Translations under genes and position numbers: made by a program
Notes under the pieces: model-generated
The model's input: the letters and a program-made list of their open reading frames with translations, nothing else
What the model was told of the DNA's origin: nothing
Database searches by the model: none
Shown: positions 6,542 to 39,081 of the stretch, piece by piece
Layout: each line of letters opens with the position of its first letter
Position numbering within the stretch: position 1 is the first letter of the stretch
IMG/VR virus record: IMGVR_UViG_3300031565_011186
Location: 1 to 60,997 of that record
Reading direction: 5' to 3' (one strand)
Length of the DNA: 60,997 nucleotides
Origin: a virus
Lineage: Duplodnaviria; Caudoviricetes

Positions 6542-6552
6542 GGGGGCACGAG

Positions 6553-7773
6553 ATGAGGATCTACGTCATAAGCGAGTTGAACCTGAAGGCCGGCAGCGGC
6601 TACACGACCATTACCCGCGGCCTGGCGGCCGAGATGGGCCTCCGCGGCCACGAGGTGAAGATCAGCGCGGTCTGGAACGACGGCGCTGAGCACCGGCTGC
6701 CGGCGACAGTCATGCCCTGCCAGCCAGAGATGTTGCCCGTCCAGGCGCGTCAGGTCTTGGACAACTTCAAACCTCAGGTGATCGTGGGCATCGCCGATAT
6801 CACGAAGCACGTCGAGTGGCAGGCCCTCATGAGCAGCGGCGTCCCGTACATCGGGATCTTCCCGCTGGAGAGCGATCCCCTGGCGCACCCGCACGAGTTC
6901 ACGCGGGTCATCGAACTGATGGCCATGGCGCTGCTCGAGACCGCCTGGGGAACGAAGTTGTGCCAAGACGTCGGCCTGACGGCGCGCCACATACCGATCG
7001 GCATCGACTGCGCCTTCTGGCGGCCGCCACGGGCGGCGGAGCGGCGCGCGGTCAGGGCCCGCATGGACAAGGCTGACGCCTTCGTCGTCCTGACGGTCTG
7101 CGACAGCCACGAACGCAAGAACCTGCCGGCGGCGGTCGCGACCGTCGCGCTCTTCTGCGGCAAGAAGATCGAATGGCCGCCAGGATCCGGCAGGAAGATC
7201 AGTGGCCCCGAGCCCGTCTGGACTGACGCCCAGATGATCATCAACACGAAGCGCCGGCCGGAAAGCGTCGGCTACTCGATGTGGAACCTCGCGGACTACT
7301 TCCACATGCAGAACGAGTTGACCTTCTATCAGCACGACCGCGAGGGCGGCCTCAGTGACGAGCAGTTGCGCGACCTCTACTGGGCGGCCGACGCCTTCCT
7401 GCTGACCAGCAAGGCGGAGGGCCTCGGCCTGCCCGTGATGGAGGCCATGGCGTGCGGCCTGCCCTGCGTCTGTACCGAGACCGGCGGCATGGCTGAGAAC
7501 CTGGCAGATGACCGCGGCTGGCTCATCCCCGCCGAGTACTCGTGCCTGGATCCGTTCGGCAACCAGTACCGGCGATTTGCCGACCCGCAGGCCGCGGCGC
7601 AACTGCTGCAGAACGTGCGGATCCAGCGGGTCGATCGGAAGGCGCGGGTGAGCAAGGCCCTGAGGTGGATCCGGCAACGTACTTGGGCCCGCGCGGCAGA
7701 CGTTCTTGAGGAGGCAATCAATGGGGTCGTCAGCGACACGAAGGAACCGGAGGCGGGCGGATCGGGCGAGTAA
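6553..7773 (+). CDS. GT4-family glycosyltransferase
   Basis: SGY, ERKN, ADAFLLTSKAEGLGLPVMEAMACGLPCV. Confidence 0.92.
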   Translation: MRIYVISELNLKAGSGYTTITRGLAAEMGLRGHEVKISAVWNDGAEHRLPATVMPCQPEMLPVQARQVLDNFKPQVIVGIADITKHVEWQALMSSGVPYIGIFPLESDPLAHPHEFTRVIELMAMALLETAWGTKLCQDVGLTARHIPIGIDCAFWRPPRAAERRAVRARMDKADAFVVLTVCDSHERKNLPAAVATVALFCGKKIEWPPGSGRKISGPEPVWTDAQMIINTKRRPESVGYSMWNLADYFHMQNELTFYQHDREGGLSDEQLRDLYWAADAFLLTSKAEGLGLPVMEAMACGLPCVCTETGGMAENLADDRGWLIPAEYSCLDPFGNQYRRFADPQAAAQLLQNVRIQRVDRKARVSKALRWIRQRTWARAADVLEEAINGVVSDTKEPEAGGSGE

Positions 7774-10733: not shown

Positions 10734-11372
10734 ATGCCAACTCTAGGAACGGGCACCAGCATCCCCGTCGGGCCGGAAAGTCCTGACGAGGACATCTACC
10801 TGGAGGGCGGGCCAGACATCTGGTATCAGGACTCCGATGCGCCAGAGGCCCACAACCCCGACAGCGACGGCTACTACTGGGGTATTTCGGGCTCCGCGGC
10901 CTACCCCCTGATCCCGCTCGGGTGCTACGACGACCTCCAACTCGTCGACACGCGGACGTCGACCGTCGTCACCTGCGCCTCCCTGGGCAACGTGGCCCAG
11001 ATGCAGCGCCGTGACGCCCTCGAAGTCCAGTTGACGGTGAAGTCGCTCATGCCCCTGGCCAACCTGACGCACCTCATCGGCGGCGGCGCCGTCGTGCATA
11101 ACGCCGCTGAGGAGACGGAGAAGATGGGCATCGGGGCGCTGCCGCAGAACGACTTCTATCACGTCTTCATGAGCCGCGTCTACGACGAGACGGTCGGCGA
11201 CTACGTCTCGATCACCCTGCACAAGGTGCAGTGGATCGAGGCGACGCCGCTGAAGATGGCCTACGGCGAGCCCTGGACTTATGCGATCCGCGGCATGGCG
11301 CTCGCGGACAGCAGCATGCCAGCGGCTCAGCGGTTCGCCACCTGGCTGCGGTACGACCCGAGCGCGCTCTAG
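10734..11372 (+). CDS. Major tail (tube) protein
   Basis: Size, own promoter and RBS, position between terminator and chaperones. Confidence 0.6.
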   Translation: MPTLGTGTSIPVGPESPDEDIYLEGGPDIWYQDSDAPEAHNPDSDGYYWGISGSAAYPLIPLGCYDDLQLVDTRTSTVVTCASLGNVAQMQRRDALEVQLTVKSLMPLANLTHLIGGGAVVHNAAEETEKMGIGALPQNDFYHVFMSRVYDETVGDYVSITLHKVQWIEATPLKMAYGEPWTYAIRGMALADSSMPAAQRFATWLRYDPSAL

Positions 11373-11384
11373 TCGGGAGGCCGC

Positions 11385-12047
11385 TTGAGGCGGCAACTGG
11401 TCGACTATCTGGAGGCCCTAAGCCTTCGCGATGCGACCGCCGAGATCACACTCGGCGGTCGTGTCTTCGCCGTCAGGCGCGGGCGCCTGGGCGACCACTA
11501 TCGCCTGGCCGCTTTGTCTGTCGGCCTGAAACTGCCGGCCGGCGCCGCCGGCTACGTTGCCCAAGCCAGCGGCCTCGACCTCCCCGAACTCTCGCCGACC
11601 GCCGGCGAGATCGCCGAGGCCTTCTGCACCCTCCATGACCTCAACGCCTTTCGCGGCACGTTGCCCGTACAGTGGTCAACGGCGCCCGAGGCGAACGACC
11701 GTCCCGAGGACTATCCTCACCGCGCCCTGAGCAGCCTGGTGGCCAACCTCGCGCGCGCTTATGGCTGGACGGCCGACCATATCCTTGAGAGGGTCGGGCC
11801 CGAGGAGGCGGTCTGCTACCTGCAGGAAGCGGTCGTCGCCGAGCATGCTGAGCGCGGTTTCTTGTGGGAGATCGCCGACCTGCGCGACCGGAATCACCGA
11901 CATATCAACTACCCGCCACTGCCCTGGGCGAAATTGCAGCGGCGGCGCGGCCGGCCAGCCGGCCCATTGCCAGAGAAGTTCCGCCCACAGGGCCTTCAGT
12001 TCACCCTGCCGGAACGCAAGAAGGGAAAGGGGATGCCCAATGTCTAA
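11385..12047 (+). CDS. Probable tail assembly chaperone
   Basis: GGGAGG RBS with TTG start; LARAYGWT..IL gpT-like motif; synteny. Confidence 0.55.
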   Translation: MRRQLVDYLEALSLRDATAEITLGGRVFAVRRGRLGDHYRLAALSVGLKLPAGAAGYVAQASGLDLPELSPTAGEIAEAFCTLHDLNAFRGTLPVQWSTAPEANDRPEDYPHRALSSLVANLARAYGWTADHILERVGPEEAVCYLQEAVVAEHAERGFLWEIADLRDRNHRHINYPPLPWAKLQRRRGRPAGPLPEKFRPQGLQFTLPERKKGKGMPNV

Positions 12048-12567
12048 GGTCACTGTCGCGGGTACCGATCACGAGGTGCCGCCCCTGAACGGCGTGGCCG
12101 GTCTGGAGGCGGCGCAGATGCTGATCCCTCACCTGGTGGTGGCGCAGGGCGCTATCGACCGCCTGGCCGTCATCGCCGCCACAGCGCCCGTCGATGAGGC
12201 GGGGAACGTCCAGTTGGGCCAGGTGCAGATCCAGGGCGCGCTCTCGGCTGCAGCCGGTATCGGCGAGGCCATGCTGCCGCTGCTGAAGCCGGACGACTTC
12301 GTTCACCTGACGTCGCTGTTGACGTCCGTGCCGGAGGAGGAACTCCGCAAGGCGACGCTCGGCGAGCTCCTGGACGCCGCTGCGGTCGGTCTGGTGAACG
12401 CCGACATCCGCTCCATCATGGGCGCGACGGGCAAGATCTATCAGGAGATTCTCAGGGGCAGCCGCAACGCGGCACCGGCACCACAGCCCTCCGAGGCCAA
12501 GCAGTTGCAGGAGGAAGCGCAAACCGAGTTCGCCGAGCGGCCGCCCGAGGCTCCGCCCGAGGAGTAA
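12040..12567 (+). CDS. Probable second tail assembly chaperone
   Basis: Helical acidic protein directly upstream of the tape measure gene. Confidence 0.5.
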   Translation: MSKVTVAGTDHEVPPLNGVAGLEAAQMLIPHLVVAQGAIDRLAVIAATAPVDEAGNVQLGQVQIQGALSAAAGIGEAMLPLLKPDDFVHLTSLLTSVPEEELRKATLGELLDAAAVGLVNADIRSIMGATGKIYQEILRGSRNAAPAPQPSEAKQLQEEAQTEFAERPPEAPPEE

Positions 12568-12570
12568 CGC

Positions 12571-15500
12571 ATGGTCTCTCCAGTCGGAGGAGGCAGCGCA
12601 GTCGACGAGGCGATCTTCCGCCTCGTCGCTGACACCCGCGGCTTCATCACCAGCGTCCAGAGCGCGGGGCAGCAGGCGGCAGGCCAACTGAGGCAGGTCG
12701 ACGCCGCTGCCGAGAAGAACGTCAGCACCGTCGGCAAGATCGGCTCGCAGTTCACCAGGATGGTGGGCCTGGCTGCGGCCGCAGCCGCGGCCTTCGCCGC
12801 CGTCAAGTTCGGTACGGGCGCCGAGCAGTACGAGGCGACGCTCTCGCGCATCTGGGCCCTGACGTCCCTGACCACAGACGAAGTTAACCGGATGGGCAGG
12901 GAGATCGTCGAAATGGCCCCCGAGATGGGCAAGGGCCCGAACGAACTCGCCGAGGGCTTCTACTTCGCCGCCTCGACGATCGACGACGCTGATAAGGCCC
13001 TGGCCGTCCTCACCGCCAGCGCGAAGGCCTCCTCCGTTGGCCTGGGCGACACCAAGACCGTCGTGGACGCGCTGACCAGCGCGATGAACGCCTACAACCT
13101 CGGGGCAGACGACGCTGCGCGCGTGACGGACATCCTGCTCAACACGGTCAAATACGGCAAGATGGAGCCTGCGGATCTGGCGCAGTCGCTCGGCCGCGTC
13201 CTGCCGGTCGCCTCCGCGCTGAAGCTCGAGCTCGAAGACCTCGGCGCCTCCCTGGCCGTCCTGTCGAACGTCGGTCTCAGCACCGAGGAGGCCGTCACGG
13301 CCGTGCGGCAAGTCCTCGTCACTCTCATTAAGCCGACAAAGCAGGCAAACGACCTTCTCAAGAGCGTGGGGCTGGACGTGGGCGACCTCCGCGACAGCCT
13401 CGGCACAACGGGGCTCCTGCCGACGCTGAACATGATCATCGACGCGACCGAGGGCAACGTCGACGCCCTCAGTGAGATCTTCCCCAACATCCGAGCCCTC
13501 ATCGGCGTCCTGGGAACGGCCGGCGTCCAGGGCGAGCGCTACGGCGAGATCCTTGAAGGCATTCGGAACGGGATGGGCGCGACCGACATAGCCTTCGAGC
13601 ACCACACGCACACGCTCGAGTACGCCCAGCAGCGTCTGCGCGCTACCATCGAGGCGGGCGCCTACAAGATCCTGCTCACGACGCTGCCAGCGATCTCCGC
13701 CGCGCTGAGTGATACGACCCATGCGTTCGAGACGTTGGAGCCCGCCCTCTCGCCCGTCGGCAGCAGTCTGAAGGTCATCGCCGACGTCCTGAACGCGCTC
13801 AAACCGATCCTCGTCATCCTGACGGCCCTCTGGGCCGCGCATCGCATCCAGATGCTCTTAGTCGCCTCCGCTACCTGGCAGGCCGCTGCCGCCAACATGG
13901 CCATGCTGACGGGCGGGCCCTCGCGGGCCCTGGCGTCCGCGACGATGGGCCTCGCTGCCGGTACCGTCGCGCTGGCGACATCCTGGGTCGGCGTCGCCAT
14001 CGCCATCGGGGCGACGGACATCGCCCTGCGGAAGATGACCGGCAGCGGTCTCCTCTCCTGGCTGACCGGCGCGGCCCAGGCGCAGCGGCGATACGCCGAA
14101 TCGCTCCGCGAGACGGGCGACGCCCAGCAGCGCATGAACGACCTTGTCAAGGAAGGCATGACGGCCCAGCAGGCGCAGACCAAGGAGTTCGAGAGGCTGG
14201 CCGCTCGGGCGAAGGAGGTCGTGGAGCGCAACCTCCCGCCCTCGGGGCCGTTCATCCCCTCCCCGACGTTCGACATCAAGGAGCCCCTCTTCGGACTGCT
14301 GAGAACCAGGCGCAGCGAGGCGCAAAAAGAAGCGGTCTCCGACCTGAAGGCGCTGCACGAGCAGGTCATGAAGCTCAATCCGTCCTATCAGCAACTGCGG
14401 GACTTCACTGCGGGCAGCGACGCCATGACGAAGCTCTTCGCCGATGACCTTGACCGGCTCAAGGAGGCCTTCGACGCCGTCGCCCTCCAGCAGGAGGTCG
14501 ACCACATCAAGGACATGGCCGACGCCATGAGGGACGCCGCCGAGGGTACAGTCGAGCTCGTCGACGCGGCGAAGACACTGAAGGAGCAATACTCGGCCCT
14601 GGACGCCGCGATCTCGCTGGCCGGCGACACGCTCAAGGGCCAGGAGGCCACGACCCTGGCCTACCTGAAGCTCCAACAAAGCAACCTGGAGCGCCAGAAG
14701 AATCTCGCGCCCGTGGGCACCTGGACGTCCGACCAGGAGAAGCAACTGCAGGCGACGAGCAAGGCGATCGAGAACGTCACCGCACAACTCGAAACCGGCA
14801 AGAACGCCCTCGCGCTGTACGGCTATTCGATGGTCACCTACCTGGGCGGCAACCTGGTCGACTCCGCGAACAAAGTCACCGAATTGGGCGACCGCTTCTC
14901 GCAGTTGCCGCCCGAAATCATCACGCTGATCAAGGCCGTGCTGCCCGAGATGCAGATGGCCCAGATGTACCTGTTCATGGAGGCCCTCCGCCGCGGGGCC
15001 ACCTTCAACGTCGCGATCAAGGTCTCCTCGGCGGGGACGGAGAGCAACCTGAAGGCCTGGGCCGAGTCGTGGGACAGGATGAGCAGTCGACAGCAGGCCT
15101 ACGTCAAGGGGAAGCTCGCCATCACCGGCCCGAACGACCCGACAATACAGGAGCTCTACGACCTCAGCCAGGCCGTCAACGCCTTCGATGAGAGCGTCAA
15201 CGCCCTCTTGCCCACGGTCACGGGCTCCGGTGCCGCGGCCGCCAAGGGGATGAGCGAGGCCGAGAAGGGCCTGCGGGCCCTCCAGGCGGCCTTCAAGGCT
15301 TCCGGCATGACCGCGCTCGAGTGGGCCTTCGTGATGAAGATCGTGCAGCAGGCGGCGAAGGACTTTAACCTGTCGGGCGAGCAGATGGTCGAGATCCTGC
15401 GCCTCAGCGGCCTCTCGGCCATGGAGTTCGCCCAGCGCCTCTGGGCCCTGACCGTCCTGGAGCAGGTCAAGCGGGATGCGACCGAGGCGGCCGATGCCGT

Positions 15501-31046: not shown

Positions 31047-33223
31047 TACCGAGGAGGATCGAGGTCAAGAACTTCCTCTCCTACGCCTACGCGCAGGTCG
31101 ACCTGAGCGGCTGCCACCTGGTGGCGCTCGCCGGCGAGAACGGCGCCGGCAAGTCCGCCCTCGCGGTCGACGCCATCACCTGGGCACTCTGGGGCGAGAG
31201 CCGAGCGCGCTCGGACGACGACCTGGTGCGGCAGGGCGCCGACGCCTGTGAGGTCAGCGTCTTCGTCGAGGCCCGCGGCTGGCACTACGAGATCCGCCGG
31301 TCGCGGCGCCTGGCACGTGAGGGCCGGTCGGCGCTCAGCAGCCTCGGCCTGATCCGTCATAACGCACAGGATCCTGACGCTGAGCCTCCGGTCGTCCTCA
31401 CGGCGGAAACCATCCGCGAGACCCAGGAACGGATCAACAGCGCCCTCGGGCTGGACTATTCGACCTTCATCAACACGGCCTGCCTGATCCAGGGGCGGGC
31501 CGACGAGTTCACCCGCGCGGCGCCGGTTGACCGAAAGAAGGTGCTGGCCTCCCTGCTCGGCCTGGAACGCTGGCAGCAGTGGACAGCCGCCCTGCACGAA
31601 GAGGGCGCCGTGACCGAGAGGAACCTCACCAGGGTTGACGGGATGATCGAGCAGACTGAACAGGCCCTCGCCCCGCTGGAGGATCTGCAGCGGGAGGCCA
31701 CGGGCCTGGAGGCCGCCGCCAACGACCTGGCGGTCAAGTTGACCGTGGCACACAGCACCGCCGAGGCGGCCCGCGCCGACGCGGACGCGCACACGAGCGA
31801 CGTCAATGAGCGGGGCAGGCTGGCCCAAGAAGGCGAGCGTGTCTACGGCGAGGTCAAGCGCAAGGACGACCAGATCTTCCGCCTGAACGAGCAGTTGAAA
31901 CAGGCGCCCACGCCCGAGGCCGTGGAGGAACTCCGCGCCCGCGTCTCTCTCCTGGAGGTGGCCAGCGCCGACTATCCGGCCATGCAGCAGGCGGCGGGGG
32001 AGTTCAGTCTGGCCTCTGAGCAGTTGGAGTCCATCAGGCGGCAACTGCCGAAGGACATCGCCGCACTGACGGAGGCCACGGAGGCGTTGGGCAAACTGCC
32101 CTTCGAGGAGGAGATCGCCGAGTTGGAGGAGTGCCCGACCTGTGGGCAGAAGCTCCACGACGCCGCGGCCGAGGAGAAAGCCCGCGCGGCCCTTAGGCTT
32201 CAGCGCGCGAATGTCCAGGCGCGGATCGACAAGGCCCAGAGGGCCGTCAACGCCGGCTATGACGCACAGAGCGAGATCGGCAACCGGATCGCCGACATGC
32301 CTGCTGCCAAGATCGGCTTTGCTGCCGCCTTCGGCAAGGCGCGCCAGGCGGCGGAAGAGATCGGCACGGCGCGGGCTACTCTGGCGAGGAACGAGGAGCG
32401 CCTGAAGGCCGCCGAGAGCCTCCGTGTTGCCCGTGACGCCCTGGTGGAGGACTCTGCCGTCCTGGGCAACCGGCTGGGCGATCTGCGTGAAGCCCTGGCC
32501 CTGAGGGAGCAGGCCGTGCTGGACGGCGCCGGCCGCGTCCTTGCCTTCCAGAATGCCGAAGGCGAGCGCCGGAAGATAAGCACTTCACTCGACGACGTCC
32601 GGCGGGCCCGCGACGAGATGAAGGGCCGCCTCGCGCACCTGCAGGAGATGGCCGCCGACCTGGGCAAGGCGCGCCAAGAGCGTCTGGCGCTGGCCGCTGA
32701 CCTCGACACAGAACGCATGCTGGAGAAGGCTTTCGGCCCCCGCGGGATCCAGGCGATGCTCATCGATTCGGCCATACCTGAGATCGTCGACGAGGCCAAC
32801 CGCCTCCTCAGCCTCATGACCGCCGGCTCGACGACCATAGATATGACGACCCAGCGCACCGGCAAGACGACGGGCAGGGAGATCGAGACCCTGGACGTCG
32901 TGATAGCGGATGCCCAAGGTGTCCGCCCCTACGAGAACTACAGCGGCGGCGAGCGATTCCGGATCGACTTCGCCCTCCGGATCGCCCTCAGCCGGCTGCT
33001 CGCGAGAAGGGCGAACGCGCCATGCAAGACGTTGATCATCGACGAGGGGTTCGGCTCCCAGGACGGGAATGGCCGGACGGGGTTGGTGGAGGCGCTGGCG
33101 ACGGTGAGCGATCAGTTCGGCCTGGTGATGGTCATCTCCCACGTCGACGAGGTCAGGGAGATCTTCCCGACAACGGTCACCGTCCGGAAGGGAACGAATG
33201 GCTCCGAGGTCAGCCTCTCTTAG
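31043..33223 (+). CDS. sbcC: SbcC/Rad50-family ATPase
   Basis: GENGAGKS, Q-loop, coiled coil with CPTC zinc hook, YSGGE, IIDEGFGSQD, ISH. Confidence 0.95.
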   Translation: MIPRRIEVKNFLSYAYAQVDLSGCHLVALAGENGAGKSALAVDAITWALWGESRARSDDDLVRQGADACEVSVFVEARGWHYEIRRSRRLAREGRSALSSLGLIRHNAQDPDAEPPVVLTAETIRETQERINSALGLDYSTFINTACLIQGRADEFTRAAPVDRKKVLASLLGLERWQQWTAALHEEGAVTERNLTRVDGMIEQTEQALAPLEDLQREATGLEAAANDLAVKLTVAHSTAEAARADADAHTSDVNERGRLAQEGERVYGEVKRKDDQIFRLNEQLKQAPTPEAVEELRARVSLLEVASADYPAMQQAAGEFSLASEQLESIRRQLPKDIAALTEATEALGKLPFEEEIAELEECPTCGQKLHDAAAEEKARAALRLQRANVQARIDKAQRAVNAGYDAQSEIGNRIADMPAAKIGFAAAFGKARQAAEEIGTARATLARNEERLKAAESLRVARDALVEDSAVLGNRLGDLREALALREQAVLDGAGRVLAFQNAEGERRKISTSLDDVRRARDEMKGRLAHLQEMAADLGKARQERLALAADLDTERMLEKAFGPRGIQAMLIDSAIPEIVDEANRLLSLMTAGSTTIDMTTQRTGKTTGREIETLDVVIADAQGVRPYENYSGGERFRIDFALRIALSRLLARRANAPCKTLIIDEGFGSQDGNGRTGLVEALATVSDQFGLVMVISHVDEVREIFPTTVTVRKGTNGSEVSLS

Positions 33224-33342
33224 GAGGGCCCCACTAGCCGGAAAGCGGGCGCGGCCGCCCGACGCAAGGCCGCGCGTTGGCGGCACGTTCGCCGGAAGGA
33301 ACGACGGTTCTGGCGCGTGGCGTTACGAAGGAGAGATCTCTA

Positions 33343-34131
33343 TTGACCGGCATCCCCTATCTCGATGAAGTCTGGAACGTGACCCACGGCTGCACGAAGG
33401 TCAGCGCGGGGTGCGCTAACTGCTACGCCGCACGGCTCAGTGACCGGTTCCCTCACGGCGGCAACTTCGGGGACGTTATCCCCCGTGAGAGCCAACTTGA
33501 CAAGCCGCTGCACTGGCGGCGTCCGCGGCGCGTCGGCGTCTGCTTCATGTCCGACCTTTTCCACGAGAGGGTGCCGGACGAGTTCCTGGACAAGGTGTTC
33601 GCGGTGATGGCGCTGACGCCTCAGCACACGTACGTGCTGCTGACGAAGAGGCCGGAGCGGATGCGGATGTACATCTCTGATCCGGCCCTAGATGATCGCC
33701 TGTGTGAATTGAACGAAGAACTCGGGCCACGCGGCTGGCCGCCCCCCAACGTCTGGCTCGGCGTGTCGGTCGAGAACCAGCAGGCCGCCGACGAGCGCAT
33801 ACCGCTGCTGCTGGAGACACCGGCGGCGGAGTGGTGGCTGTCGGTAGAGCCGCTGCTGGGGGCGGTCGATCTGTCGCGTTATCTGCCGAGCCCACACGTT
33901 CGTCTAACCGGCCGACCGACCCTCGACTGGGTTGTCGTCGGCGGCGAGTCCGGCCCGAAGGCGCGACCAATGGAGGGCGGCTGGCTCATGGACATCATGG
34001 CCGAATGCTCTGAGGCCGGAGTGCCCGTCTACGTGAAGCAGGACAGCGGGCCGCGACCAGGCCAGCAGGGGCGCATCCCCGACGCGCTGTGGGCTGTCAA
34101 GCAGTTGCCGTGGCCGAAGGAGGAACCATGA
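33343..34131 (+). CDS. DUF5131 (phage gp37/gp68-family) protein
   Basis: WN...GCTKVSAGCANCYA, MSDLFHE, LLTKRPER, SVEPLL, WVVVGGESG; TTG start after AAGGAG. Confidence 0.9.
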   Translation: MTGIPYLDEVWNVTHGCTKVSAGCANCYAARLSDRFPHGGNFGDVIPRESQLDKPLHWRRPRRVGVCFMSDLFHERVPDEFLDKVFAVMALTPQHTYVLLTKRPERMRMYISDPALDDRLCELNEELGPRGWPPPNVWLGVSVENQQAADERIPLLLETPAAEWWLSVEPLLGAVDLSRYLPSPHVRLTGRPTLDWVVVGGESGPKARPMEGGWLMDIMAECSEAGVPVYVKQDSGPRPGQQGRIPDALWAVKQLPWPKEEP

Positions 34132-34270
34132 AACGGTTCGAAAGGACGGTGGTCTGAGGTGTCAACGCGCAGTTGCCCTAGCGGCTATCTTGCTGGCGGC
34201 TGCGCTCTTCGGAAGGGAGGTCGCGAACGAAACACGGCTCGGGCGCTGGCGTAGCGGCGCTCGATATCGG

Positions 34271-34870
34271 ATGGCGGTGCTCCTGGGGCTGATAGTCCTC
34301 AGCAGCGCCTTTCTAGGAGGCAAGACAGATGGATGCCCAACAGATCCTAGTTGTACTCGCAGCGATGATAGCGGCCGCGCTGTCCGGTTCCTTCTTCGCG
34401 GAATACCGGCGGCGCTCCGAACAGCACCGCGAACGCTCCCAAGTCCGACGCCTGACGCGACACCCCTAGAGTTCGTCGCTCCTCCTGCAGCCACGCCGCC
34501 GACGGAACCCCCTGCCACCAGGGCGTCGGCGGCCGGCTATATCTCGGGCCGGCTGACGCACTACGGCGGCGGGCCGGTCTGGGGCGACGCCGTCGACTAT
34601 AACGGCCGCCAGATGGGTTGCCCAGGCGCCGGCCTCTACGATAGTGCCGACCCGACGATCGTCGCGGTCGGCCCCTCCCGCTACGCTGACTGGCCCTGCG
34701 GCACCGCCCTGAGCATCTGCGGGCCTACCGGCTGCCTTACCGCCATCCGTCAGGATGCCTGCCCAGGTTGTGGGCCCTTCCTCGTCGACGGAAGCGAATC
34801 CCTCTTCCGCGCCGTCTGCGGCGCCGGCGCCTCCGGATCCTGCGAGATCTCCATCACCGCCGCCCCATAA
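34271..34870 (+). CDS. Membrane-anchored RlpA-like double-psi beta-barrel protein
   Basis: Hydrophobic N-terminus, Pro/Thr linker, THY...CG...D.CPGC...VD.S..LF; start uncertain (34190 possible). Confidence 0.7.
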   Translation: MAVLLGLIVLSSAFLGGKTDGCPTDPSCTRSDDSGRAVRFLLRGIPAALRTAPRTLPSPTPDATPLEFVAPPAATPPTEPPATRASAAGYISGRLTHYGGGPVWGDAVDYNGRQMGCPGAGLYDSADPTIVAVGPSRYADWPCGTALSICGPTGCLTAIRQDACPGCGPFLVDGSESLFRAVCGAGASGSCEISITAAP

Positions 34871-34946
34871 TCGCCACGGCTGGCCCCCACGGCCCCACTT
34901 TCTTCGAAATAGGTCGAACTTTCTGAGGATTCTCGCGCCACAACCC

Positions 34947-34975
34947 TTGACTTCCATGGCCGTGACGGCTATATT
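34947..34975 (+). promoter_or_regulatory. Early sigma70-type promoter with operator B
   Basis: TTGACT-17-TATATT; GCCGTGACGGC at 34959-34969. Confidence 0.75.
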
Positions 34976-34981
34976 GGACTC

Positions 34982-35267
34982 ATGAAGTGAACCACAGGCG
35001 CGGGGCAGGCCAGCAAAAAACAAGCCCCACGGACACCGGCCGGAGCGAGGGAGCTAACACGGCTCGCCAGGGAACCCGCCCAGGCACGACAGCCCCCAGG
35101 CCCAAAACCCCCAGGGACGGCCGGAGACAAGGAGGGAAGCAGAAAGGCCGGAGACGACCGCGAAGCCTCCCGAGGGCGCCAAGAACGGAAGAGCAAGCGC
35201 GCAAGCGCGGACACGCCGAGAAGCGCCCGAGCAGAAGGAAGCCGAAACGAGGCGGGAACGCCTCGTC
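34982..35267 (+). ncRNA. Candidate U-depleted leader RNA released by hammerhead 1
   Basis: Only 3 T in 34989-35262; bounded by the promoter and the ribozyme cleavage site. Confidence 0.5.
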
Positions 35268-35307
35268 GCCTCAGGGTCACCTCCTGGGGCCTGAGGATGG
35301 CAGGTGA
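35241..35307 (+). ncRNA. Type II hammerhead ribozyme 1
   Basis: GCC-GAAA-C-GAGGCG(GGAA)CGCCTC-GTC-GCCTCAGG(GTCACCT)CCTGGGGC-CTGAGGA-T-GGC; loop TCACCT pairs with downstream AGGTGA (pseudoknot). Confidence 0.88.
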
Positions 35308-35322
35308 ACGAAAGGATGAACG

Positions 35323-35577
35323 ATGGATCTGGCAACGGTAGTCATCGAGGGGACGATGAGGGCGGGGGCCATGTACGTCGCCGAGAAGCACCTGACCATA
35401 GACTTCGCGGCCGTGACCGCGCGGATGCGCGATATCGTCAGGGCCGAGTACGGCGAACTGATGGAGACGTTGAAGGACGCCCTGGACGGCAACATGGGCG
35501 ACGCCATGTACCGCCAGGTCATCAACACCTTCTGCACCTCCTGGGCCATCCGCGCGGTTGATAACAGGGCGCGCTGA
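35323..35577 (+). CDS. Hypothetical 84-aa protein flanked by two hammerheads
   Basis: AAAGGA RBS, genome-like codon usage, stop abuts ribozyme 2. Confidence 0.75.
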   Translation: MDLATVVIEGTMRAGAMYVAEKHLTIDFAAVTARMRDIVRAEYGELMETLKDALDGNMGDAMYRQVINTFCTSWAIRAVDNRAR

Positions 35578-35637
35578 GCCGAAACGCCCGCGAGGGCGTC
35601 CGTCAGGACTGACCGCCTGGCGCCGATGAGGCAGGTC
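35578..35637 (+). ncRNA. Type II hammerhead ribozyme 2 (U4C core variant)
   Basis: GCC-GAAA-C-GCCC(GCGA)GGGC-GTC-CGTCAGG(ACTGACCG)CCTGGCG-CCGATGA-GGC; loop GACC pairs with downstream GGTC. Confidence 0.82.
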
Positions 35638-35658
35638 GAACGAGGAGGGATTGAGACG

Positions 35659-35970
35659 ATGACTGGCCGGAAGTTCAGCAGGGGCAAGGTTCGGCTCGTG
35701 ACCTGCGACGGTTGCGGCAAGCTCACCACGTCGGGAATCGACGGTTGCGTTGGCTTGAATCTCTGCCGCGAGTGCTTCAACGATGTCAACGGAGAGAACG
35801 CGCACAGCGACTATGGCCACGATGAGGCCGTTGCTGGGGGCGACTATTGGCCCAGGGGCTGCGAGAAGTGCAGGGCCGCGGCGGAAGATGCGAAGATCAT
35901 CGCCACGTTCAAAGCTATCAACGCCGCCGACCACAAGCGCGACGCCGAGGAGGCAGGTGAGGGCCGATGA
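35659..35970 (+). CDS. Cys-rich early protein
   Basis: CDGCGKLT...LCREC...ENAHSD..H...CEKC; GAGGAGG RBS. Confidence 0.75.
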   Translation: MTGRKFSRGKVRLVTCDGCGKLTTSGIDGCVGLNLCRECFNDVNGENAHSDYGHDEAVAGGDYWPRGCEKCRAAAEDAKIIATFKAINAADHKRDAEEAGEGR

Positions 35971-36215
35971 CTGACCTCACGCGCGGACAGCAGCAGCAGC
36001 AGAACAACAGGGATCGCGGGACTGGGCGGTACCGGACGGGGAACCGCTGCGACGTTTGCCAAAGGCCGGTGCCTTTCTACGACTACTTCGGCAACGCCGA
36101 CCTGCCCTGTGTCTGCAGCCGGAAGGCCTGCCTGAGGGCACTGCACGAGTCAGACCTGGCGGCCGGCCGGCGCGATGACACCTTCGCGGAGTTCTGGGCG
36201 CTGGTGAGGCGATAG
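35967..36215 (+). CDS. Small zinc-finger protein
   Basis: CDVC...VCSRKAC; coupled start. Confidence 0.65.
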   Translation: MTDLTRGQQQQQNNRDRGTGRYRTGNRCDVCQRPVPFYDYFGNADLPCVCSRKACLRALHESDLAAGRRDDTFAEFWALVRR

Positions 36216-36225
36216 GAGGAAGCAC

Positions 36226-36435
36226 ATGGCCTGGAAGATCGTATTCGAGACGGTAGAGGACGCCATTCGGAGCGCCCGCACCGACCGGCGCTACGGGCAG
36301 AGGATCGCGATAGTCTGCGCCACGAGGCGGGGATATCGCAAGGTAGCCCTAGCGGAGGGACAGGCGGCACGGACGTGTTGGCGGGGCGCTCATCTGGTCT
36401 GCGTGGTGGAGTTAGATGGCACCGTCACGCACTAG
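36226..36435 (+). CDS. Hypothetical protein
   Basis: AGGAGG RBS. Confidence 0.6.
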   Translation: MAWKIVFETVEDAIRSARTDRRYGQRIAIVCATRRGYRKVALAEGQAARTCWRGAHLVCVVELDGTVTH

Positions 36436-36504
36436 GGGCTCCTGCCCCTGGACTCGGCCCTTCGCTGGAGGGGCCGGATGCAGCAGCAGGAGGAGAGAAT
36501 CATG
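36434..36504 (+). promoter_or_regulatory. Repeated structured RNA leader, copy 1
   Basis: AGGGGC-TCCT-GCCCCT hairpin, stem with C(GCTG)G loop, GCAGGAG complementary to CTCCTGC. Confidence 0.65.
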
Positions 36505-37089
36505 TCTACCCCTTACAAGGCAGAAGACGAGCGGGTGCTCAGGGTCAGCATCGAGAGCGCCCAGAAGTCCATGGCCGAGTCCTTCGCCCTCATAGTGAGG
36601 CGCCTGCGCGAAAAGGCCGACGACATTGAGCGGCAGACGATGCGGGCCGTCGAGGCCGGACTGGACGGCGCCCTGGCCGGTGCTTACGTCAACATCGCCG
36701 ACGCGGTGCTGAACGAGATCGAATGGCTCTCCCCGAACCTGCCGGTCAGCCAGATCCAGCGGGAGGCGCGGCGCCTCGTCCAGTACGAGGCCATCCTCCA
36801 GCAGATGGGCGTCCTGGTCACCGACGAGGAGCGCGCTGGCGAGGCCGCCCTGGCCGCGAACCAGGCAATCGTCGACAAGGTGAAGGCCATGATCGAGGCG
36901 GGCGTGCCGGTCAAGGTCAGCGGCAACAGGATCGTAGACGTCGCCGTCGGCGGTTATGGCTACGCAGACCGGCCGATCATGTTCCGGCTGAAGGGCCGCA
37001 AGTACATGCGGACGGCGACGACCGCGGACGTCGAGGAACTGAAGGCGGCCGACAATCCGAGTTATGTATCGCGCCGGTCAGTGAAATAG
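36502..37089 (+). CDS. Hypothetical protein
   Basis: AGGAGG RBS, typical codon usage. Confidence 0.75.
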   Translation: MSTPYKAEDERVLRVSIESAQKSMAESFALIVRRLREKADDIERQTMRAVEAGLDGALAGAYVNIADAVLNEIEWLSPNLPVSQIQREARRLVQYEAILQQMGVLVTDEERAGEAALAANQAIVDKVKAMIEAGVPVKVSGNRIVDVAVGGYGYADRPIMFRLKGRKYMRTATTADVEELKAADNPSYVSRRSVK

Positions 37090-37093
37090 GGAC

Positions 37094-37123
37094 TTGACTT
37101 TCCCTGGCCGTGACGGCTATCGT
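37094..37123 (+). promoter_or_regulatory. Sigma70-type promoter with operator B
   Basis: TTGACT-18-TATCGT; GCCGTGACGGC at 37107-37117. Confidence 0.65.
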
Positions 37124-37135
37124 CACACAGCCAGC

Positions 37136-37204
37136 GGGGGCTCCTTGCCCCTGCGATGGCGACTCGCCGGAGCCGCCGTCGGAGCAGCAAGGAGGAGAGT
37201 GATG
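37136..37204 (+). promoter_or_regulatory. Repeated structured RNA leader, copy 2
   Basis: GGGGGC-TCCTT-GCCCCT, C(GCCG)G loop, GCAAGGAG complementary to CTCCTTGC. Confidence 0.65.
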
Positions 37205-38224
37205 AGCCACGAAGTCGAGAGCATGATGTACACGGACTGGGAAGCGCCCTGGCACGGGCTAGGCGTTCCCGTTCACGAGGCGCCCAACAGCGCCGAGGCC
37301 CTGAAGTTGGCGGGCCTCGACTGGCTGGTGGAGCAGGTGCCGGTCTACGTCGCCTCTGCCGGTAAAGGCAAGGGCGCGCCGGACGTCGAGGTGCCAGGTT
37401 ACAAGGCGGTCAGGCGCGACTCGGACGGGCGGATCTTCACCGTGCGGTCAGAGAACTTCCAGCCGTTTCAGAACCACGAGATGTTCGAGTTCCTCGACGC
37501 GCTCGTGGGCACGGGCGACCTCAAGTTCGACACCGCTGGCAGCCTCTTCGGCGGCAAGAAGGTCTGGGCCCTGGCGCGGACGCCGCAGACGATCAAGATC
37601 GGCGGCACGGACGAGATCCGGCAGTACATCCTGGTGGCGAACGGCCACGACGGGCACACGGCCCTGCAGGCGCTGGCGACCGACGAGCGCGTCGTCTGCC
37701 GCAACACCCTCAACGCCGCCCTGGCGCGCAGCAGGAAGACGAACGGCCTGGAGGTGCGGGTCTACCACAGTAGCAAGCTGGCCGACCACGTCGCGGAGGC
37801 CCGCCGGATCCTGGGCATCGTGAACGTCGAGTTCGAGACCTTCCGCCAGGCGGCCGAGGGGCTCGCGGCCGAGGACGGCATGCCGTACGTCGACAAGCTG
37901 CTCAACGCGATGTTCCCGCCGCCCACGGGCACCAACGCTGCAGCGAAGACAGTCTACGACCAGAAGCGCAGCACCATCGAGGGGCTGGTCAAGGCCGCTG
38001 ACGGGAGCGCCTGGGGCCTCCTGAACGGCATCACGGCCTTTGTCGACCATCGGGTGAGCCGCAGCAAGAAGGACGACGCCTCCAGCCGAAGGATGAACAG
38101 CGTGCTGCTGGGCCCCGACGCCGAGTTCAAGACGCGGGCTGCCCAGACCCTGCTGGACATGACGGGGATCTACGACAGCCTCATGCGCGACCGCGAGGCC
38201 ATGATGGTGCAGGTACGAAAGTAG
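37202..38224 (+). CDS. DUF932-family phage/plasmid protein
   Basis: MSHEVESMMY...PWHGLG, AGLDW.V, TAGSLFGGKKVW, NGHDG, RVVCRNTL, SAWGLLNGIT..DH. Confidence 0.9.
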   Translation: MSHEVESMMYTDWEAPWHGLGVPVHEAPNSAEALKLAGLDWLVEQVPVYVASAGKGKGAPDVEVPGYKAVRRDSDGRIFTVRSENFQPFQNHEMFEFLDALVGTGDLKFDTAGSLFGGKKVWALARTPQTIKIGGTDEIRQYILVANGHDGHTALQALATDERVVCRNTLNAALARSRKTNGLEVRVYHSSKLADHVAEARRILGIVNVEFETFRQAAEGLAAEDGMPYVDKLLNAMFPPPTGTNAAAKTVYDQKRSTIEGLVKAADGSAWGLLNGITAFVDHRVSRSKKDDASSRRMNSVLLGPDAEFKTRAAQTLLDMTGIYDSLMRDREAMMVQVRK

Positions 38225-38240
38225 CGGCGGGCTCTGCCCT

Positions 38241-38289
38241 CCGTGAGCGGGCTGCAGTTTTCTGGGGAAGGTTTGCAGCCCGCTGACGG
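38241..38289 (+). promoter_or_regulatory. Long intergenic hairpin
   Basis: CCGT-G-AGCGGGCTGCA / TGCAGCCCGCT-G-ACGG arms, no U-tract. Confidence 0.6.
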
Positions 38290-38322
38290 GCGGTTAAAGC
38301 AAGACTCACAAGGAGGAACAAG

Positions 38323-38796
38323 ATGATCGAGAAGGGCAGCCTCCAGGTCGGCGACGTCCTGGTGGCCAAGTTCAAGGGCGTGACCTACCACGCATCCGTC
38401 AGGGCGAAGAACGGCGACGGCACGCTGGTCTACGAGGCCATCGACGGCCCCGCGGCCGGCACGGAGTTCAAGACCCCTTCGGCCCTGGGGAAGGTGATCA
38501 CGGGTCACGAGTGCAACGGCTGGGCGTTCTGGAGCATCGAAGGCAAGGAACCTGTGAAGGCCCCGCGCGTCGCGCGCGCCAAGAGCAACCTGGTCGAGCG
38601 GTTCCAGTGCCCCGACTGCACTCACATCTTCCAGACTGCTGCCGCGGCGAAGCGCTGCCTCTGCCAGGGGGCCAAGGCGGCGCGGCTGAGCGGCACGCAC
38701 CTGGAGCCGGTCAGCGTCATGATCGACCCCATGGGGCCGGCCAAGGCGGAGGCCGCGGTCACGGTCACGCGCGAGCCGGCGGAGCCGGCCGCCTAA
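38323..38796 (+). CDS. RAMA-like DNA-binding domain protein with zinc finger
   Basis: L.VGD.L...KG..Y.A...DG...FKTPSA...ITG...NGWAFW; CPDC. Confidence 0.65.
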   Translation: MIEKGSLQVGDVLVAKFKGVTYHASVRAKNGDGTLVYEAIDGPAAGTEFKTPSALGKVITGHECNGWAFWSIEGKEPVKAPRVARAKSNLVERFQCPDCTHIFQTAAAAKRCLCQGAKAARLSGTHLEPVSVMIDPMGPAKAEAAVTVTREPAEPAA

Positions 38797-38802
38797 GCAC
38801 CG

Positions 38803-38877
38803 GAGGGGCTTCCGGCCCCTTCGCCTGCGCCTTCGCGGGAGGGCGCGGACGTCAGCGCCGGAAGGAGGAGCAGCGTG
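38803..38877 (+). promoter_or_regulatory. Repeated structured RNA leader, copy 3
   Basis: GAGGGGC-TTCCG-GCCCCTT, C(GCGG)G loop, GCCGGAAG complementary to CTTCCGGC. Confidence 0.6.
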
Positions 38878-39081
38878 ACCTACAACTACCGATACCAGCA
38901 CTGCAAACCTGAGGACGTGGCGACAGGCGCGCGGATCATCAAAGACGAACTCGGCTGGCAGGACACTGCGGATCCGAAGGAGGCCCTGCAGACCGTCATC
39001 GGCAAAATGATGGATCTGTGTGACCTCATCGCTGCGGTTGCGCCGACAAAGGAGGAATCCGATGGCGGTCTACGAAGGTAA
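38875..39081 (+). CDS. Hypothetical protein
   Basis: AAGGAGG RBS with GTG start. Confidence 0.65.
   Translation: MTYNYRYQHCKPEDVATGARIIKDELGWQDTADPKEALQTVIGKMMDLCDLIAAVAPTKEESDGGLRR

What the first reader, a model, noticed from the sequence alone, without database searches (positions are those of the whole stretch)
35241..35637. Two type II hammerhead ribozymes bracket one ORF and excise a 333-nt RNA that could circularise
Seen: two complete hammerhead folds, each with GAAA, a GUC cleavage triplet, a CUGANGA-type core and a loop-I/3'-tail pseudoknot. Stem sequences differ between the two but pairing is preserved. They flank the 84-aa ORF 35323-35577, and ribozyme 2 starts at the base after its stop codon. 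Known: hammerhead cleavage leaves 5'-OH and 2',3'-cyclic phosphate ends, which are substrates for RtcB and for the reverse hammerhead reaction. Inference: cutting after C35267 and C35600 releases 35268-35600, carrying the 3' half of ribozyme 1 at its 5' end and the 5' half of ribozyme 2 at its 3' end. Stem II is GCC/GGC in both, so the ends can assemble a chimeric hammerhead, giving a circular mRNA with an intact RBS and ORF. At minimum this is host-RNase-independent processing of an early transcript.
Basis: partly seen in the sequence, partly recalled or inferred. Interest (0 to 1): 0.9.

Follow-up and report, generated by a model that had tools for sequence, protein, structure and literature searches.

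The report
Hammerhead ribozymes flanking a phage gene
Two genuine self-cutting hammerhead RNAs sit on either side of a small gene in a soil phage, but this is an ordinary example of a known phage habit of putting a ribozyme in front of each gene, and nothing here points to a circular RNA.

Summary
Rfam finds exactly two matches in the 60,997-b window, both Hammerhead_II on the + strand: 35240-35309 (37.2 bits, cut-off 37) and 35577-35640 (45.8 bits). The cuts fall after C35267 and C35600, giving a 333-nt RNA that carries the conserved 84-aa ORF.

The arrangement is not new. Perreault et al. 2011 described hammerheads flanking single prophage genes. They also raised spliced or circular products and did not detect them.

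My survey of 135 IMG/VR phage loci shows the same module everywhere. The previous gene's stop codon abuts the ribozyme in 121 of 162 cases, and an SD plus start codon follows 10-39 nt after it in 116 of 162. 31 loci carry arrays, with cuts 221-3800 nt apart.

The circle idea gains no support:
- The shared GCC/GGC stem II is the family default.
- 10 of 43 neighbouring pairs are incompatible.
- The end-joining helix has a probability of about 6e-5.
- The one related phage does not bracket this ORF.
- No RNA data could be laid.

Best reading: ribozyme punctuation that releases single-gene mRNAs. This scan has reported the same arrangement on other DNA (for example e1-6129471).

The parts
34947..34975 (+). 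Sigma-70-like promoter TTGACT-17-TATATT with the palindrome GCCGTGACGGC in the spacer; inferred start of the transcript near 34982
   Evidence: 10 of 12 hexamer matches; 3 promoter-like sites found in 34000-38500 against 0.2 expected from shuffles; sequence. A terminator-like hairpin at 34878-34894 closes the upstream gene.
34982..35239 (+). Non-coding leader, almost free of T. HH1 would release it, together with the 5' part of the ribozyme (to C35267), as an RNA of about 286 nt ending in a 2',3'-cyclic phosphate
   Evidence: T is 1.2-1.9% here against 15.4% in the window, the lowest of all 258-nt stretches. No ORF of 60 aa or more is listed on the + strand of the corresponding L003 leader. 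The leader aligns poorly to L003 apart from the block AACAAGCCCCAC.
35240..35309 (+). Hammerhead type II no. 1 (HH1), predicted to cut after C35267. Core CUGAGGA with an extra U35298. Pseudoknot 35277-81 with 35303-07
   Evidence: 37.2 bits, cut-off 37; descriptor; folds (active fold -32.8 kcal/mol, competing hairpin -34.5, pseudoknot duplex -7.8).
35268..35600 (+). 333-nt RNA predicted to be released by the two cuts. 5'-OH end with stem I and pseudoknot, RBS AAGGA (about 35312-16), the ORF, then 23 nt ending in the stem III GNRA hairpin with a 2',3'-cyclic phosphate
   Evidence: Positions counted; fold. The end chemistry is inferred from established hammerhead chemistry.
35323..35577 (+). ORF of 84 aa: conserved, a predicted three-helix protein of no known family
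   Evidence: 4 homologues at 67-83% identity; 48 invariant columns; no Pfam or PHROG family; pLDDT 86.1, three helices; no fold match at E<=0.001 (0 of 62 PDB matches, 0 of 104 BFVD matches).
35577..35640 (+). Hammerhead type II no. 2 (HH2), predicted to cut after C35600. Core CCGAUGA (U4C). Pseudoknot 35610-14 with 35634-38
   Evidence: 45.8 bits; descriptor; a 96%-identical strain in run X7 differs at only 2 places inside it, both structure-preserving (35592 G>A keeps the GNRA loop; 35603 T>C turns U.G into C-G).
35642..35970 (+). RBS GAGGAGG (35642-48) and the next gene (ATG 35659, 103 aa, Cys-rich), whose 5' UTR is the 3' part of HH2
   Evidence: no family; no relative in viral contigs (13 candidate stretches, none confirmed).

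Best explanation
These are two bona fide type II hammerhead ribozymes acting as intercistronic punctuation. Each one is the 5'-UTR module of the gene that follows it.

A host-RNA-polymerase transcript starts near 34982. As each ribozyme is transcribed it folds (stems III and I as local hairpins, a 3-bp stem II, and a loop I/tail pseudoknot) and cuts itself after C35267 and after C35600. The cuts give three RNAs:
1. A U-poor leader of about 286 nt.
2. A 333-nt single-gene mRNA for the 84-aa protein.
3. The mRNA of the downstream genes.

Each message then starts with a 5'-OH followed by the stem I/pseudoknot structure about 20 nt before its start codon. The upstream message ends 23 nt past its stop codon in a GNRA-capped hairpin with a 2',3'-cyclic phosphate.

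The likely benefit is that each cistron's stability and translation is set by its own defined, structured ends, independent of the leader, of neighbouring cistrons and of host RNases.

Shown here: family membership, the anatomy, and the generality of the stop-ribozyme-SD-start module.
Inferred: that cutting happens, the end chemistry, and the effect on stability and translation.
For: - Both motifs pass Rfam's curated cut-off, and they are the only 2 Rfam matches in the window.
- The pseudoknots covary between the two copies: UCACC/GGUGA against (U)GACC/GGUC(G) (duplex energies -7.8 and -7.1 kcal/mol).
- A natural strain variant changes HH2 only at structure-neutral places.
- Both core deviations recur in phages. 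The U4C form with GGCAGG occurs in 22 IMG/VR loci (25 sites, 19 of them above the Rfam cut-off). In the form with an inserted base (at least 113 loci), the base is T in 118 of 122 sites.
- Perreault 2011 (discussion passage) states that a U4C variant lowers activity in vitro but still supports viroid infectivity.
- Survey of 135 phage loci: 176 descriptor sites against 2 in reversed controls.
- In that survey, 116 of 162 sites have an SD plus the start of an ORF of at least 40 codons 10-39 nt after stem II, against 75 of 810 random positions.
- 121 of 162 sites have a stop codon ending -1 to +9 nt before stem II, against 59 of 810 random positions. The window fits both figures (22 nt and 0 nt).
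- Arrays are common: 31 of 135 loci have 2 or more sites, and there are 45 neighbouring pairs with cuts 221-3800 nt apart.
- Published precedent: clustered hammerheads flank prophage genes and all cut in vitro, and in E. coli for the A. tumefaciens set (Perreault 2011, passages). Two type II hammerheads about 313 nt apart in D. vulgaris both cut in vivo (PMC8782182, passages).
- The related phage G001 has the same layout of a promoter-like region, a leader of about 300 nt, a hammerhead fold and then the first ORF, but with a type III topology. This argues that the cut itself, not a particular ribozyme, is what is kept.
Against: - No cleavage or transcript data exist for this phage.
- HH1 scores only 0.2 bits above the cut-off. 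Without its pseudoknot, the competing hairpin 35269-75/35290-96, which buries C3-G8, is favoured: -34.5 against -32.8 kcal/mol, pair probability 0.93 against 0.06.
- HH2 carries U4C, which is reported to lower activity in vitro.
- The type III fold in G001 is not recognised by any Rfam hammerhead model even at E<=10, and its folding energy is not unusual (z -1.77; 12 of 200 shuffles fold as well).
- The stabilising effect of 5'-OH and cyclic-phosphate ends is inferred from general knowledge of bacterial RNA decay and was not tested.
- My survey loci were retrieved with patterns taken from these two ribozymes, so they describe this subclass and not all hammerheads.
Confidence: 0.7

Rival explanations
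1. Circular mRNA. After both cuts, the 5'-OH and 2',3'-cyclic phosphate ends of 35268-35600 are joined into a translatable 333-nt circle. The joining is done either by a chimeric hammerhead (5' half of HH2 plus 3' half of HH1) working in reverse, or by a host RtcB ligase.
For: - The two halves are formally compatible: stem II is GCC/GGC in both, and stems I, III and the pseudoknot each lie within one half.
- Engineered ribozyme-flanked mRNAs that keep their RBS, coding region and stop codon are circularised in E. coli by the native RtcB and are translated (PMC12628768, passages).
- The competing hairpin in the 3' half of HH1 could protect a ligated circle from re-cutting, as alternative folds do in viroids (recalled).
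- Neighbouring pairs are slightly more often compatible than shuffled partners: 33 of 43 against 30.1 +/- 1.3, with 4% of shuffles reaching 33.
Against: - GCC/GGC is the class default (146 of 176 sites), and 10 of 43 neighbouring pairs cannot form the chimera.
- The three chimeric stem II pairs have probabilities of 2-6e-5 in the linear fragment. Its minimum-energy fold does not bring the ends together, and the same hairpin that might protect a circle also buries the core needed for ribozyme ligation.
- There is no Tornado-like end stem.
- The phage encodes no RtcB and the host is unknown.
- Perreault et al. looked for circular or spliced products from such arrays and found none (data not shown in the paper).
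- In the related phage G001 the ORF homologue has a mutated ribozyme remnant upstream and none downstream, so a circle of this ORF is not conserved.
- The ORF has an in-frame stop codon, so the length of 333 = 3 x 111 has no rolling-translation meaning.
Confidence: 0.07
2. Conditional or weak ribozymes. One or both are slow or switchable, through the competing hairpin in HH1 and U4C in HH2. On this reading cleavage is a regulated step that tunes expression of the 84-aa protein and of downstream genes, for example in response to Mg2+, temperature, ribosome traffic over the stop codon that abuts HH2, or a factor. It would not be constitutive punctuation.
For: - HH1's competing fold is 1.7 kcal/mol more stable than the active secondary structure without the pseudoknot, and dominates the ensemble.
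- U4C 'considerably decreases activity in vitro' (Perreault 2011 discussion). The same paper suggests that slower phage variants may be regulated.
- A ribosome terminating at 35575-77 would cover stem II and part of stem III of HH2 (inference from the known ribosome footprint).
Against: - The pseudoknot (about -7.8 kcal/mol as a duplex) should tip HH1 towards the active fold, and stem I is transcribed before the competing strand.
- Both core variants are common in phage arrays, which fits ordinary function.
- No ligand-binding or sensor element is evident.
Confidence: 0.15
3. Cassette boundaries. The ribozyme-plus-RBS modules matter mainly as shared sequence patches at which small genes are exchanged or duplicated between phages, and the RNA cleavage is secondary.
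For: - In G001 a 46-nt direct repeat (91% identical, 264 nt apart) flanks an extra zinc-ribbon ORF inserted ahead of the ORF homologue. The repeat consists of the 3' part of the hammerhead fold plus the RBS.
- The genes after the ORF differ between the two phages.
- Other soil phage contigs in runs X4 and X6 share only the 35594-35641 module of HH2, with a different stem III.
- Perreault 2011 notes that the identities of the flanked genes are not constant.
Against: - This does not explain why intact catalytic cores, pseudoknots and compensatory changes are kept.
- The second copy in G001 has lost core bases, which shows that the repeat alone is not what selection keeps.
- The idea is compatible with the best explanation rather than an alternative to it.
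Confidence: 0.05

Closest known systems
Clustered hammerhead ribozymes flanking single genes or short gene blocks in prophages (Perreault et al. 2011, PMC3088659; restated in de la Pena et al. 2017, PMC6155905)
   Same: Several hammerheads on one strand, close together, flanking small genes of varying identity in phage DNA. Type II topology with a loop I/tail pseudoknot. Proposed role of cutting long transcripts into gene-length mRNAs. The circular or spliced alternative is already discussed there (passages read).
   Different: Only the instance is different: another phage (an uncultured soil virus, 66% G+C), another flanked gene, and a first ribozyme that follows a U-poor non-coding leader instead of a gene. 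My survey adds figures for the module (stop codon abutting the ribozyme; start codon about 20 nt after it). I did not see these in the passages I read. I could not see that paper's figures or supplements.
Desulfovibrio vulgaris type II hammerheads loc 2 and loc 3 (cyPhyRNA-seq, PMC8782182)
   Same: Two type II hammerheads on the same strand, about 313 nt apart, near hypothetical and phage-like genes. Both were shown to cut in vivo by capture of the 2',3'-cyclic phosphate and 5'-OH ends (passages).
   Different: That pair has been validated experimentally and this one has not. I made no sequence comparison with it.
Tornado-type engineered circular mRNAs in E. coli (ribozyme-flanked RNA joined by the native RtcB; PMC12628768)
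   Same: An RBS, a coding region and a stop codon between two self-cleaving ribozymes that leave 5'-OH and 2',3'-cyclic phosphate ends (passages).
   Different: The engineered RNAs have designed complementary ends that hold the termini together for RtcB. Here the ends share only a 3-bp helix of negligible predicted occupancy. No ligase is encoded and no circle has been observed.
Viroid and retrozyme circular RNAs processed by hammerheads (de la Pena et al. 2020, PMC7761336)
   Same: A unit released by two hammerhead cuts, whose ends can in principle rebuild one hammerhead.
   Different: Those are repeats of one unit with identical type I or III ribozymes, mostly non-coding, with compact folds that bring the ends together, and with circles shown experimentally. 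Here two different type II ribozymes lie in a DNA phage operon around a protein gene.

Membership tests
Hammerhead ribozyme, type II (Rfam RF02276) | Covariance-model score at or above the curated gathering score (37 bits), full-length match | tested here: met
   HH1 scores 37.2 bits (borderline) and HH2 45.8 bits, both over model positions 1-66.
Hammerhead ribozyme, type II (Rfam RF02276) | Conserved catalytic core: C3 U4 G5 A6 N7 G8 A9, G12 A13 A14, A15.1-U16.1, and a cleavage-site base that is not G | tested here: inconclusive
   All core bases are present except one deviation in each ribozyme: HH1 has an extra U between A9 and stem II, and HH2 has C at position 4. Both deviations recur in many phage sites. 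U4C is a known natural variant that is active in vivo. Activity was not measured.
Hammerhead ribozyme, type II (Rfam RF02276) | Three helices with stems I and III closed by loops and stem II open | tested here: met
   cmscan alignments; own descriptor. The HH2 minimum-energy fold shows all three stems. The HH1 minimum-energy fold replaces stem I with a competing hairpin.
Hammerhead ribozyme, type II (Rfam RF02276) | Pseudoknot of 4 or more bp between loop I and the tail 3' of stem II (Perreault 2011) | tested here: met
   HH1 has 5-6 bp (35277-82 with 35302-07) and HH2 has 4-5 bp (35610-14 with 35634-38). The sequences differ between the copies but pairing is kept. Duplex energies are -7.8 and -7.1 kcal/mol.
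Hammerhead ribozyme, type II (Rfam RF02276) | Site-specific self-cleavage giving 2',3'-cyclic phosphate and 5'-OH ends | not testable with these tools
   This needs in vitro transcription or RNA-end sequencing.
Clustered hammerheads flanking phage genes (Perreault 2011) | Two or more hammerheads on one strand, close together, flanking single genes or short blocks in phage DNA | tested here: met
   The two sites are 333 nt apart (cut to cut) on the + strand of a complete virus record. The same layout occurs in 31 of 135 surveyed phage loci.
Hammerhead-processed circular RNA (viroid, retrozyme or Tornado-like) | Ends of the released unit held together by stable pairing so that they can be ligated | tested here: not met
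   Only the 3-bp stem II is available, with pair probabilities of 2-6e-5. The linear minimum-energy fold (-151.8 kcal/mol) does not pair the ends, and the circular fold is less stable (-146.5).
Hammerhead-processed circular RNA (viroid, retrozyme or Tornado-like) | A circular junction observed in RNA | not testable with these tools
   This needs RNA from infected cells or a metatranscriptome. See Tried and rejected for what was attempted.
Hammerhead-processed circular RNA (viroid, retrozyme or Tornado-like) | A ligase available (RtcB or similar) | tested here: inconclusive
   There is no RtcB (PF01139) match in the phage record, while the control search matches in 10 of 14 reference genomes. 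The host is unknown.

The most novel reading that the evidence does not exclude
Phage type II hammerhead arrays are natural 'Tornado' devices. Because any 5' half can pair with any 3' half through the near-universal GCC/GGC stem II, a fraction of each excised stop-to-start cassette, including 35268-35600, would be closed by host RtcB (or by reverse hammerhead chemistry) into a small, exonuclease-proof circular mRNA. That circle would keep its own RBS, ORF, stop codon and one rebuilt ribozyme.
Probability: 0.07. Interest if true: 0.8.

Novelty: new member of a known kind. Interest (0 to 1): 0.3.

Why it matters
In itself this is one more example of a phenomenon described in 2011 whose biological purpose is still unproven. 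It has modest value in three ways.

1. It is a clean, compact test case: one promoter, one leader, two ribozymes and one small gene in about 700 nt. It could be used to ask what ribozyme punctuation does for phage gene expression, meaning mRNA stability, translation, and insulation from the leader.

2. The survey made here shows that the module is very regular. The stop codon touches the ribozyme, and the start codon follows about 20 nt after it. This points to a role tied to translation and to mRNA ends.

3. The related phage carries a hammerhead fold of another topology at the same place. This suggests that the cut is what selection keeps.

If circles were ever found, they would be the first natural circular mRNAs of a DNA phage. 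Nothing here favours that.

Tried and rejected
- RNA evidence: the look-up of sequencing runs listed 8 DNA runs (soil and sediment) and no RNA holder. Expression, the cleavage ends and the 35600/35268 junction therefore could not be examined. Read laying on the contigs of X7, X8, X4 and X6 showed no DNA joint at 35268/35600. These are DNA contigs and cannot show RNA ends.
- Relatives of the ORF. Viral contigs: 96 candidate stretches, 1 relative (L003). Metagenome contigs: 390 candidates, 1 locus, which is the same contig (L004). Genome contigs: 62 candidates, none. The megablast search of 33000-39000 against GenBank phages found no match. The gene after HH2 has no relative in viral contigs. 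Conservation of the pair therefore rests on one near-identical strain (X7) and one divergent phage.
- Rfam on the relative: no hammerhead of any type in L003/G001 at E<=1 or E<=10. The type III fold there rests on my reading, a simple motif scan and its minimum-energy fold, and its energy is not exceptional.
- CsrA-sponge idea for the leader: 12 GGA motifs against 9.4 +/- 2.4 in shuffles (19% of shuffles reach 12). Rejected.
- A link between U4C and the absence of the extra U: the raw table (CT+insert 123, CC+none 30, CT+none 21, CC+insert 2) is produced by my two search patterns. Among the 34 sites that match neither pattern the counts are 19, 8, 5 and 2, which shows no clear link. Dropped.
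- Function of the 84-aa protein: no Pfam or PHROG family and no fold match.
- Genome-contig pattern scan: only 17 of the 120 stored stretches pass the full descriptor. The rest are probably chance matches in 596 Gb, so I make no taxonomic claim beyond named examples (for instance, six sites on one strand in a Streptomyces sp. NRRL F-5123 contig, L182).
- Literature: I found no report of natural circular mRNAs from hammerhead-flanked phage genes. This covers the listings and the passages read.
- Papers, and what I saw of them: PMC3088659 (outline, section 8 and passages); PMC7761336, PMC8782182, PMC12628768, PMC13725137 and PMC6155905 (passages only). I did not open supplements. Figures S1-S3 and S6-S7 of PMC3088659 and the supplementary tables of PMC8782182 may bear on the core variants and on the circle test.
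Full report
WHAT IS THERE.
The window is a complete uncultured virus record (60,997 b, CheckV 100%) with 66% G+C. Rfam's 4,227 models give exactly two matches in it, at the curated thresholds and also at E<=1. Both are Hammerhead_II (RF02276), full length, on the + strand: 35240-35309 at 37.2 bits (cut-off 37) and 35577-35640 at 45.8 bits.

Both ribozymes have a GNRA-capped stem III, a stem I hairpin, a 3-bp GCC/GGC stem II, and a tail that pairs with loop I. The tail pairing is UCACC/GGUGA in HH1 and (U)GACC/GGUC(G) in HH2, with duplex energies of -7.8 and -7.1 kcal/mol.

A descriptor I wrote (core, three helices, cleavage base) finds these two sites and nothing else in the window, and only 2 sites in 1.19 Mb of reversed control DNA.

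TWO QUALIFICATIONS.
HH1 has an extra U (35298) between A9 and stem II, and HH2 has C instead of U at core position 4.

HH1 barely passes the Rfam cut-off. Its minimum-energy fold, which ignores the pseudoknot, is a competing hairpin (35269-75 with 35290-96) that buries C3-G8. That fold has -34.5 kcal/mol against -32.8 for the active secondary structure, with pair probabilities of 0.93 against 0.06.

Neither core deviation is a one-off:
- A scan of IMG/VR for the U4C form found 22 loci with 25 sites. 19 of the 25 pass the Rfam cut-off; the sites in L005, L006, L017, L019, L025 and L026 do not.
The inserted base is T in 118 of the 122 sites that carry one.
- Perreault et al. 2011 (discussion passage) note that a U4C variant 'considerably decreases activity in vitro' but still supports viroid infectivity.
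- A 96%-identical strain in run X7 differs from the window at 16 places in 35471-35894. Only two lie in HH2, and both preserve structure: 35592 G>A keeps a GNRA loop, and 35603 T>C turns a U.G pair into C-G.

CONTEXT.
A strong sigma-70-like promoter (TTGACT-17-TATATT, 34947-34975) follows a terminator-like hairpin at the end of the upstream gene. Between the promoter and HH1 lies a leader of about 258 nt. It is the most T-poor stretch of the whole window (1.2-1.9% T against 15.4%).

The ORF 35323-35577 is a real gene. It has four homologues at 67-83% identity with 48 invariant columns. It is predicted with confidence as a three-helix protein (pLDDT 86.1). It has no Pfam, PHROG or fold match.

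Its stop codon ends at 35577 and stem II of HH2 begins at 35578. The next gene (ATG 35659) has its RBS four bases after the HH2 tail.

HOW ORDINARY IS THIS?
Perreault et al. [quoted passage not shown] The 2017 review by de la Pena et al. repeats the observation. In D. vulgaris, two type II hammerheads about 313 nt apart both cut in vivo.

I surveyed the 135 IMG/VR loci retrieved with the two patterns:
- Rfam on the first 22 loci gave 30 Hammerhead_II and 3 twister-sister matches. 8 of the 22 loci have two or more ribozymes.
- My descriptor found 176 sites in 131 of the 135 loci.
- 31 loci have two or more sites, up to seven. There are 45 neighbouring same-strand pairs with cuts 221-3800 nt apart, and 21 of them are 570 nt apart or less.
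- Of the 162 sites with enough flank, 116 have a Shine-Dalgarno sequence plus the start of an ORF of at least 40 codons 10-39 nt after stem II (random positions: 75 of 810).
- 121 of the 162 have the stop codon of an open frame of at least 40 codons ending -1 to +9 nt before stem II (random positions: 59 of 810). In 48 cases it abuts exactly and in 36 it overlaps by one base.

The window's figures are 22 nt and 0 nt. The 'bracketing' is therefore two consecutive ribozyme-RBS-gene modules packed tightly, and 'ribozyme 2 starts right after the stop codon' is a trait of the whole class.

The caveat is that these loci were found with patterns taken from these two ribozymes. In bacterial genomes the same U4C pattern mostly gives chance hits (17 of 120 pass the descriptor). 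The true hits include arrays, for example six sites on one strand in a Streptomyces sp. NRRL F-5123 contig.

THE RELATED PHAGE.
The only DNA relative is G001 (L003 = L004), with 82% protein identity in the ORF. It has no Rfam hammerhead.

It does show the same layout of a promoter-like region followed by a leader of about 300 nt that shares AACAAGCCCCAC. At 2646-2701 there is a sequence whose minimum-energy fold is a textbook type III hammerhead: stem III GGGU/ACCC, C17 at 2650, an 8-bp stem I, core CCGAUGA (again U4C), a 5-bp stem II, and GAAA. Its energy is not unusual (z -1.77).

A 46-nt direct repeat of its 3' part plus the RBS lies 264 nt downstream, after an extra zinc-ribbon ORF and directly before the ORF homologue. 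This second copy has lost core bases (CGGAUGA, GUAA) and does not fold as a hammerhead. No ribozyme follows the ORF homologue, and the next gene is different.

Two things follow. A cut between the leader and the first gene seems to be kept, by a different ribozyme topology. Bracketing of this particular ORF is not kept.

THE CIRCLE HYPOTHESIS.
Formally the ends can rebuild a hammerhead, but that is true of almost any neighbouring pair:
- GCC/GGC is the stem II of 146 of 176 surveyed sites.
- Among 43 neighbouring pairs within 2 kb, 33 are compatible for a circle and 32 for a splice. Shuffled partners give 30.1 +/- 1.3, and 81 of 86 native stems are compatible. So 10 pairs are incompatible, and compatibility is not a kept requirement.
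- In the thermodynamic ensemble of the 333-nt RNA the three chimeric pairs have probabilities of 2-6e-5. The 5' end instead adopts the hairpin that buries the core, and the circular fold (-146.5 kcal/mol) is no better than the linear one (-151.8).
- There is no designed end stem of the kind used in engineered Tornado circles, which do work in E. coli with the native RtcB.
- The phage has no RtcB and the host is unknown.

I could not test for RNA junctions (see Tried and rejected). I put the circle at about 7%.

MECHANISM PROPOSED.
Co-transcriptional self-cleavage at both sites turns one transcript into a U-poor leader RNA, a single-gene mRNA for the 84-aa protein, and the downstream message. 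Each coding RNA then begins with a 5'-OH and a stem I/pseudoknot structure just before its RBS. The upstream one ends in a GNRA hairpin with a cyclic phosphate 23 nt past its stop codon.

From general knowledge of bacterial RNA decay, such ends should resist 5'-end-dependent RNases and 3' exonucleases, and should uncouple each cistron from its neighbours. This is recalled knowledge and was not tested here.

Shown: membership, anatomy, generality. Inferred: cleavage, end chemistry, the benefit.

Rivals: regulated or slow ribozymes (15%), circular mRNA (7%), cassette-exchange boundaries as the main role (5%).

VERDICT.
These are real ribozymes, correctly located, and a new member of a well-known arrangement. 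Earlier follow-ups in this scan reached the same view on other genomes (e1-6129471, e1-6029276, e1-3287451). Interest is 0.3.

Noticed in passing
window 34982-35239: The leader between the promoter and HH1 is the most T-poor and most A-rich 258-nt stretch of the window (T 1.2-1.9% against 15.4%). HH1 would release it as a discrete RNA of about 286 nt. GGA motifs are not enriched over shuffles (12 against 9.4 +/- 2.4). No conserved ORF is apparent in it. The corresponding G001 leader is less extreme (8.6% T). Function unknown.
   Followed up: partly
L003 2646-2701 and 2927-2972 (G001): A type III hammerhead fold with a U4C core that no Rfam hammerhead model detects. A 46-nt, 91%-identical, core-mutated copy lies 264 nt downstream. 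The two flank an extra 67-aa zinc-ribbon ORF inserted ahead of the ORF homologue.
   Followed up: partly
window 36434-36504, 37136-37204, 38803-38877: Three copies of a two-hairpin motif (GGGGC-loop-GCCCC, then a stem capped by YUCGCNGGAG, then AGC and the SD) fill later intergenic gaps of the same gene string. The CUCC-like loop of the first hairpin could pair with the GGAG of the second loop or with the SD. There is no Rfam match at E<=1. I only read the sequences.
   Followed up: no
runs X4 and X6, contigs matching window 35594-35641 only: Much more abundant contigs (word depth about 150, 7-25 kb) in the same soils share only the stem I, core and tail module of HH2 (3-5 mismatches). They have a different stem III (CGGGG-GCAA-CCCCG) and different flanks, so this ribozyme module is shared among otherwise unrelated soil phages.
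   Followed up: partly
window 34959-34969: The palindrome GCCGTGACGGC sits between the -35 and -10 hexamers of the promoter that drives the ribozyme-bearing transcript. It is a likely repressor operator. A variant, GCCGTGGCGGC, stands at the same place in a divergent relative in run X7 (loose end).
   Followed up: no
L017 (IMGVR_UViG_3300001687_000115) about 11009-13713; L182 (Streptomyces sp. NRRL F-5123 contig) about 4244-7413: Long arrays of type II hammerheads on one strand by my descriptor: seven sites spaced 295-556 nt in L017 and six in L182. Each gap holds about one small ORF.
   Followed up: partly
L008, L021, L024: Twister-sister ribozymes (RF02681, 43.9-52 bits) lie on the same strand and within a few kb of type II hammerheads in three of the 22 phage loci. 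This fits the known association of ribozyme classes.
   Followed up: no
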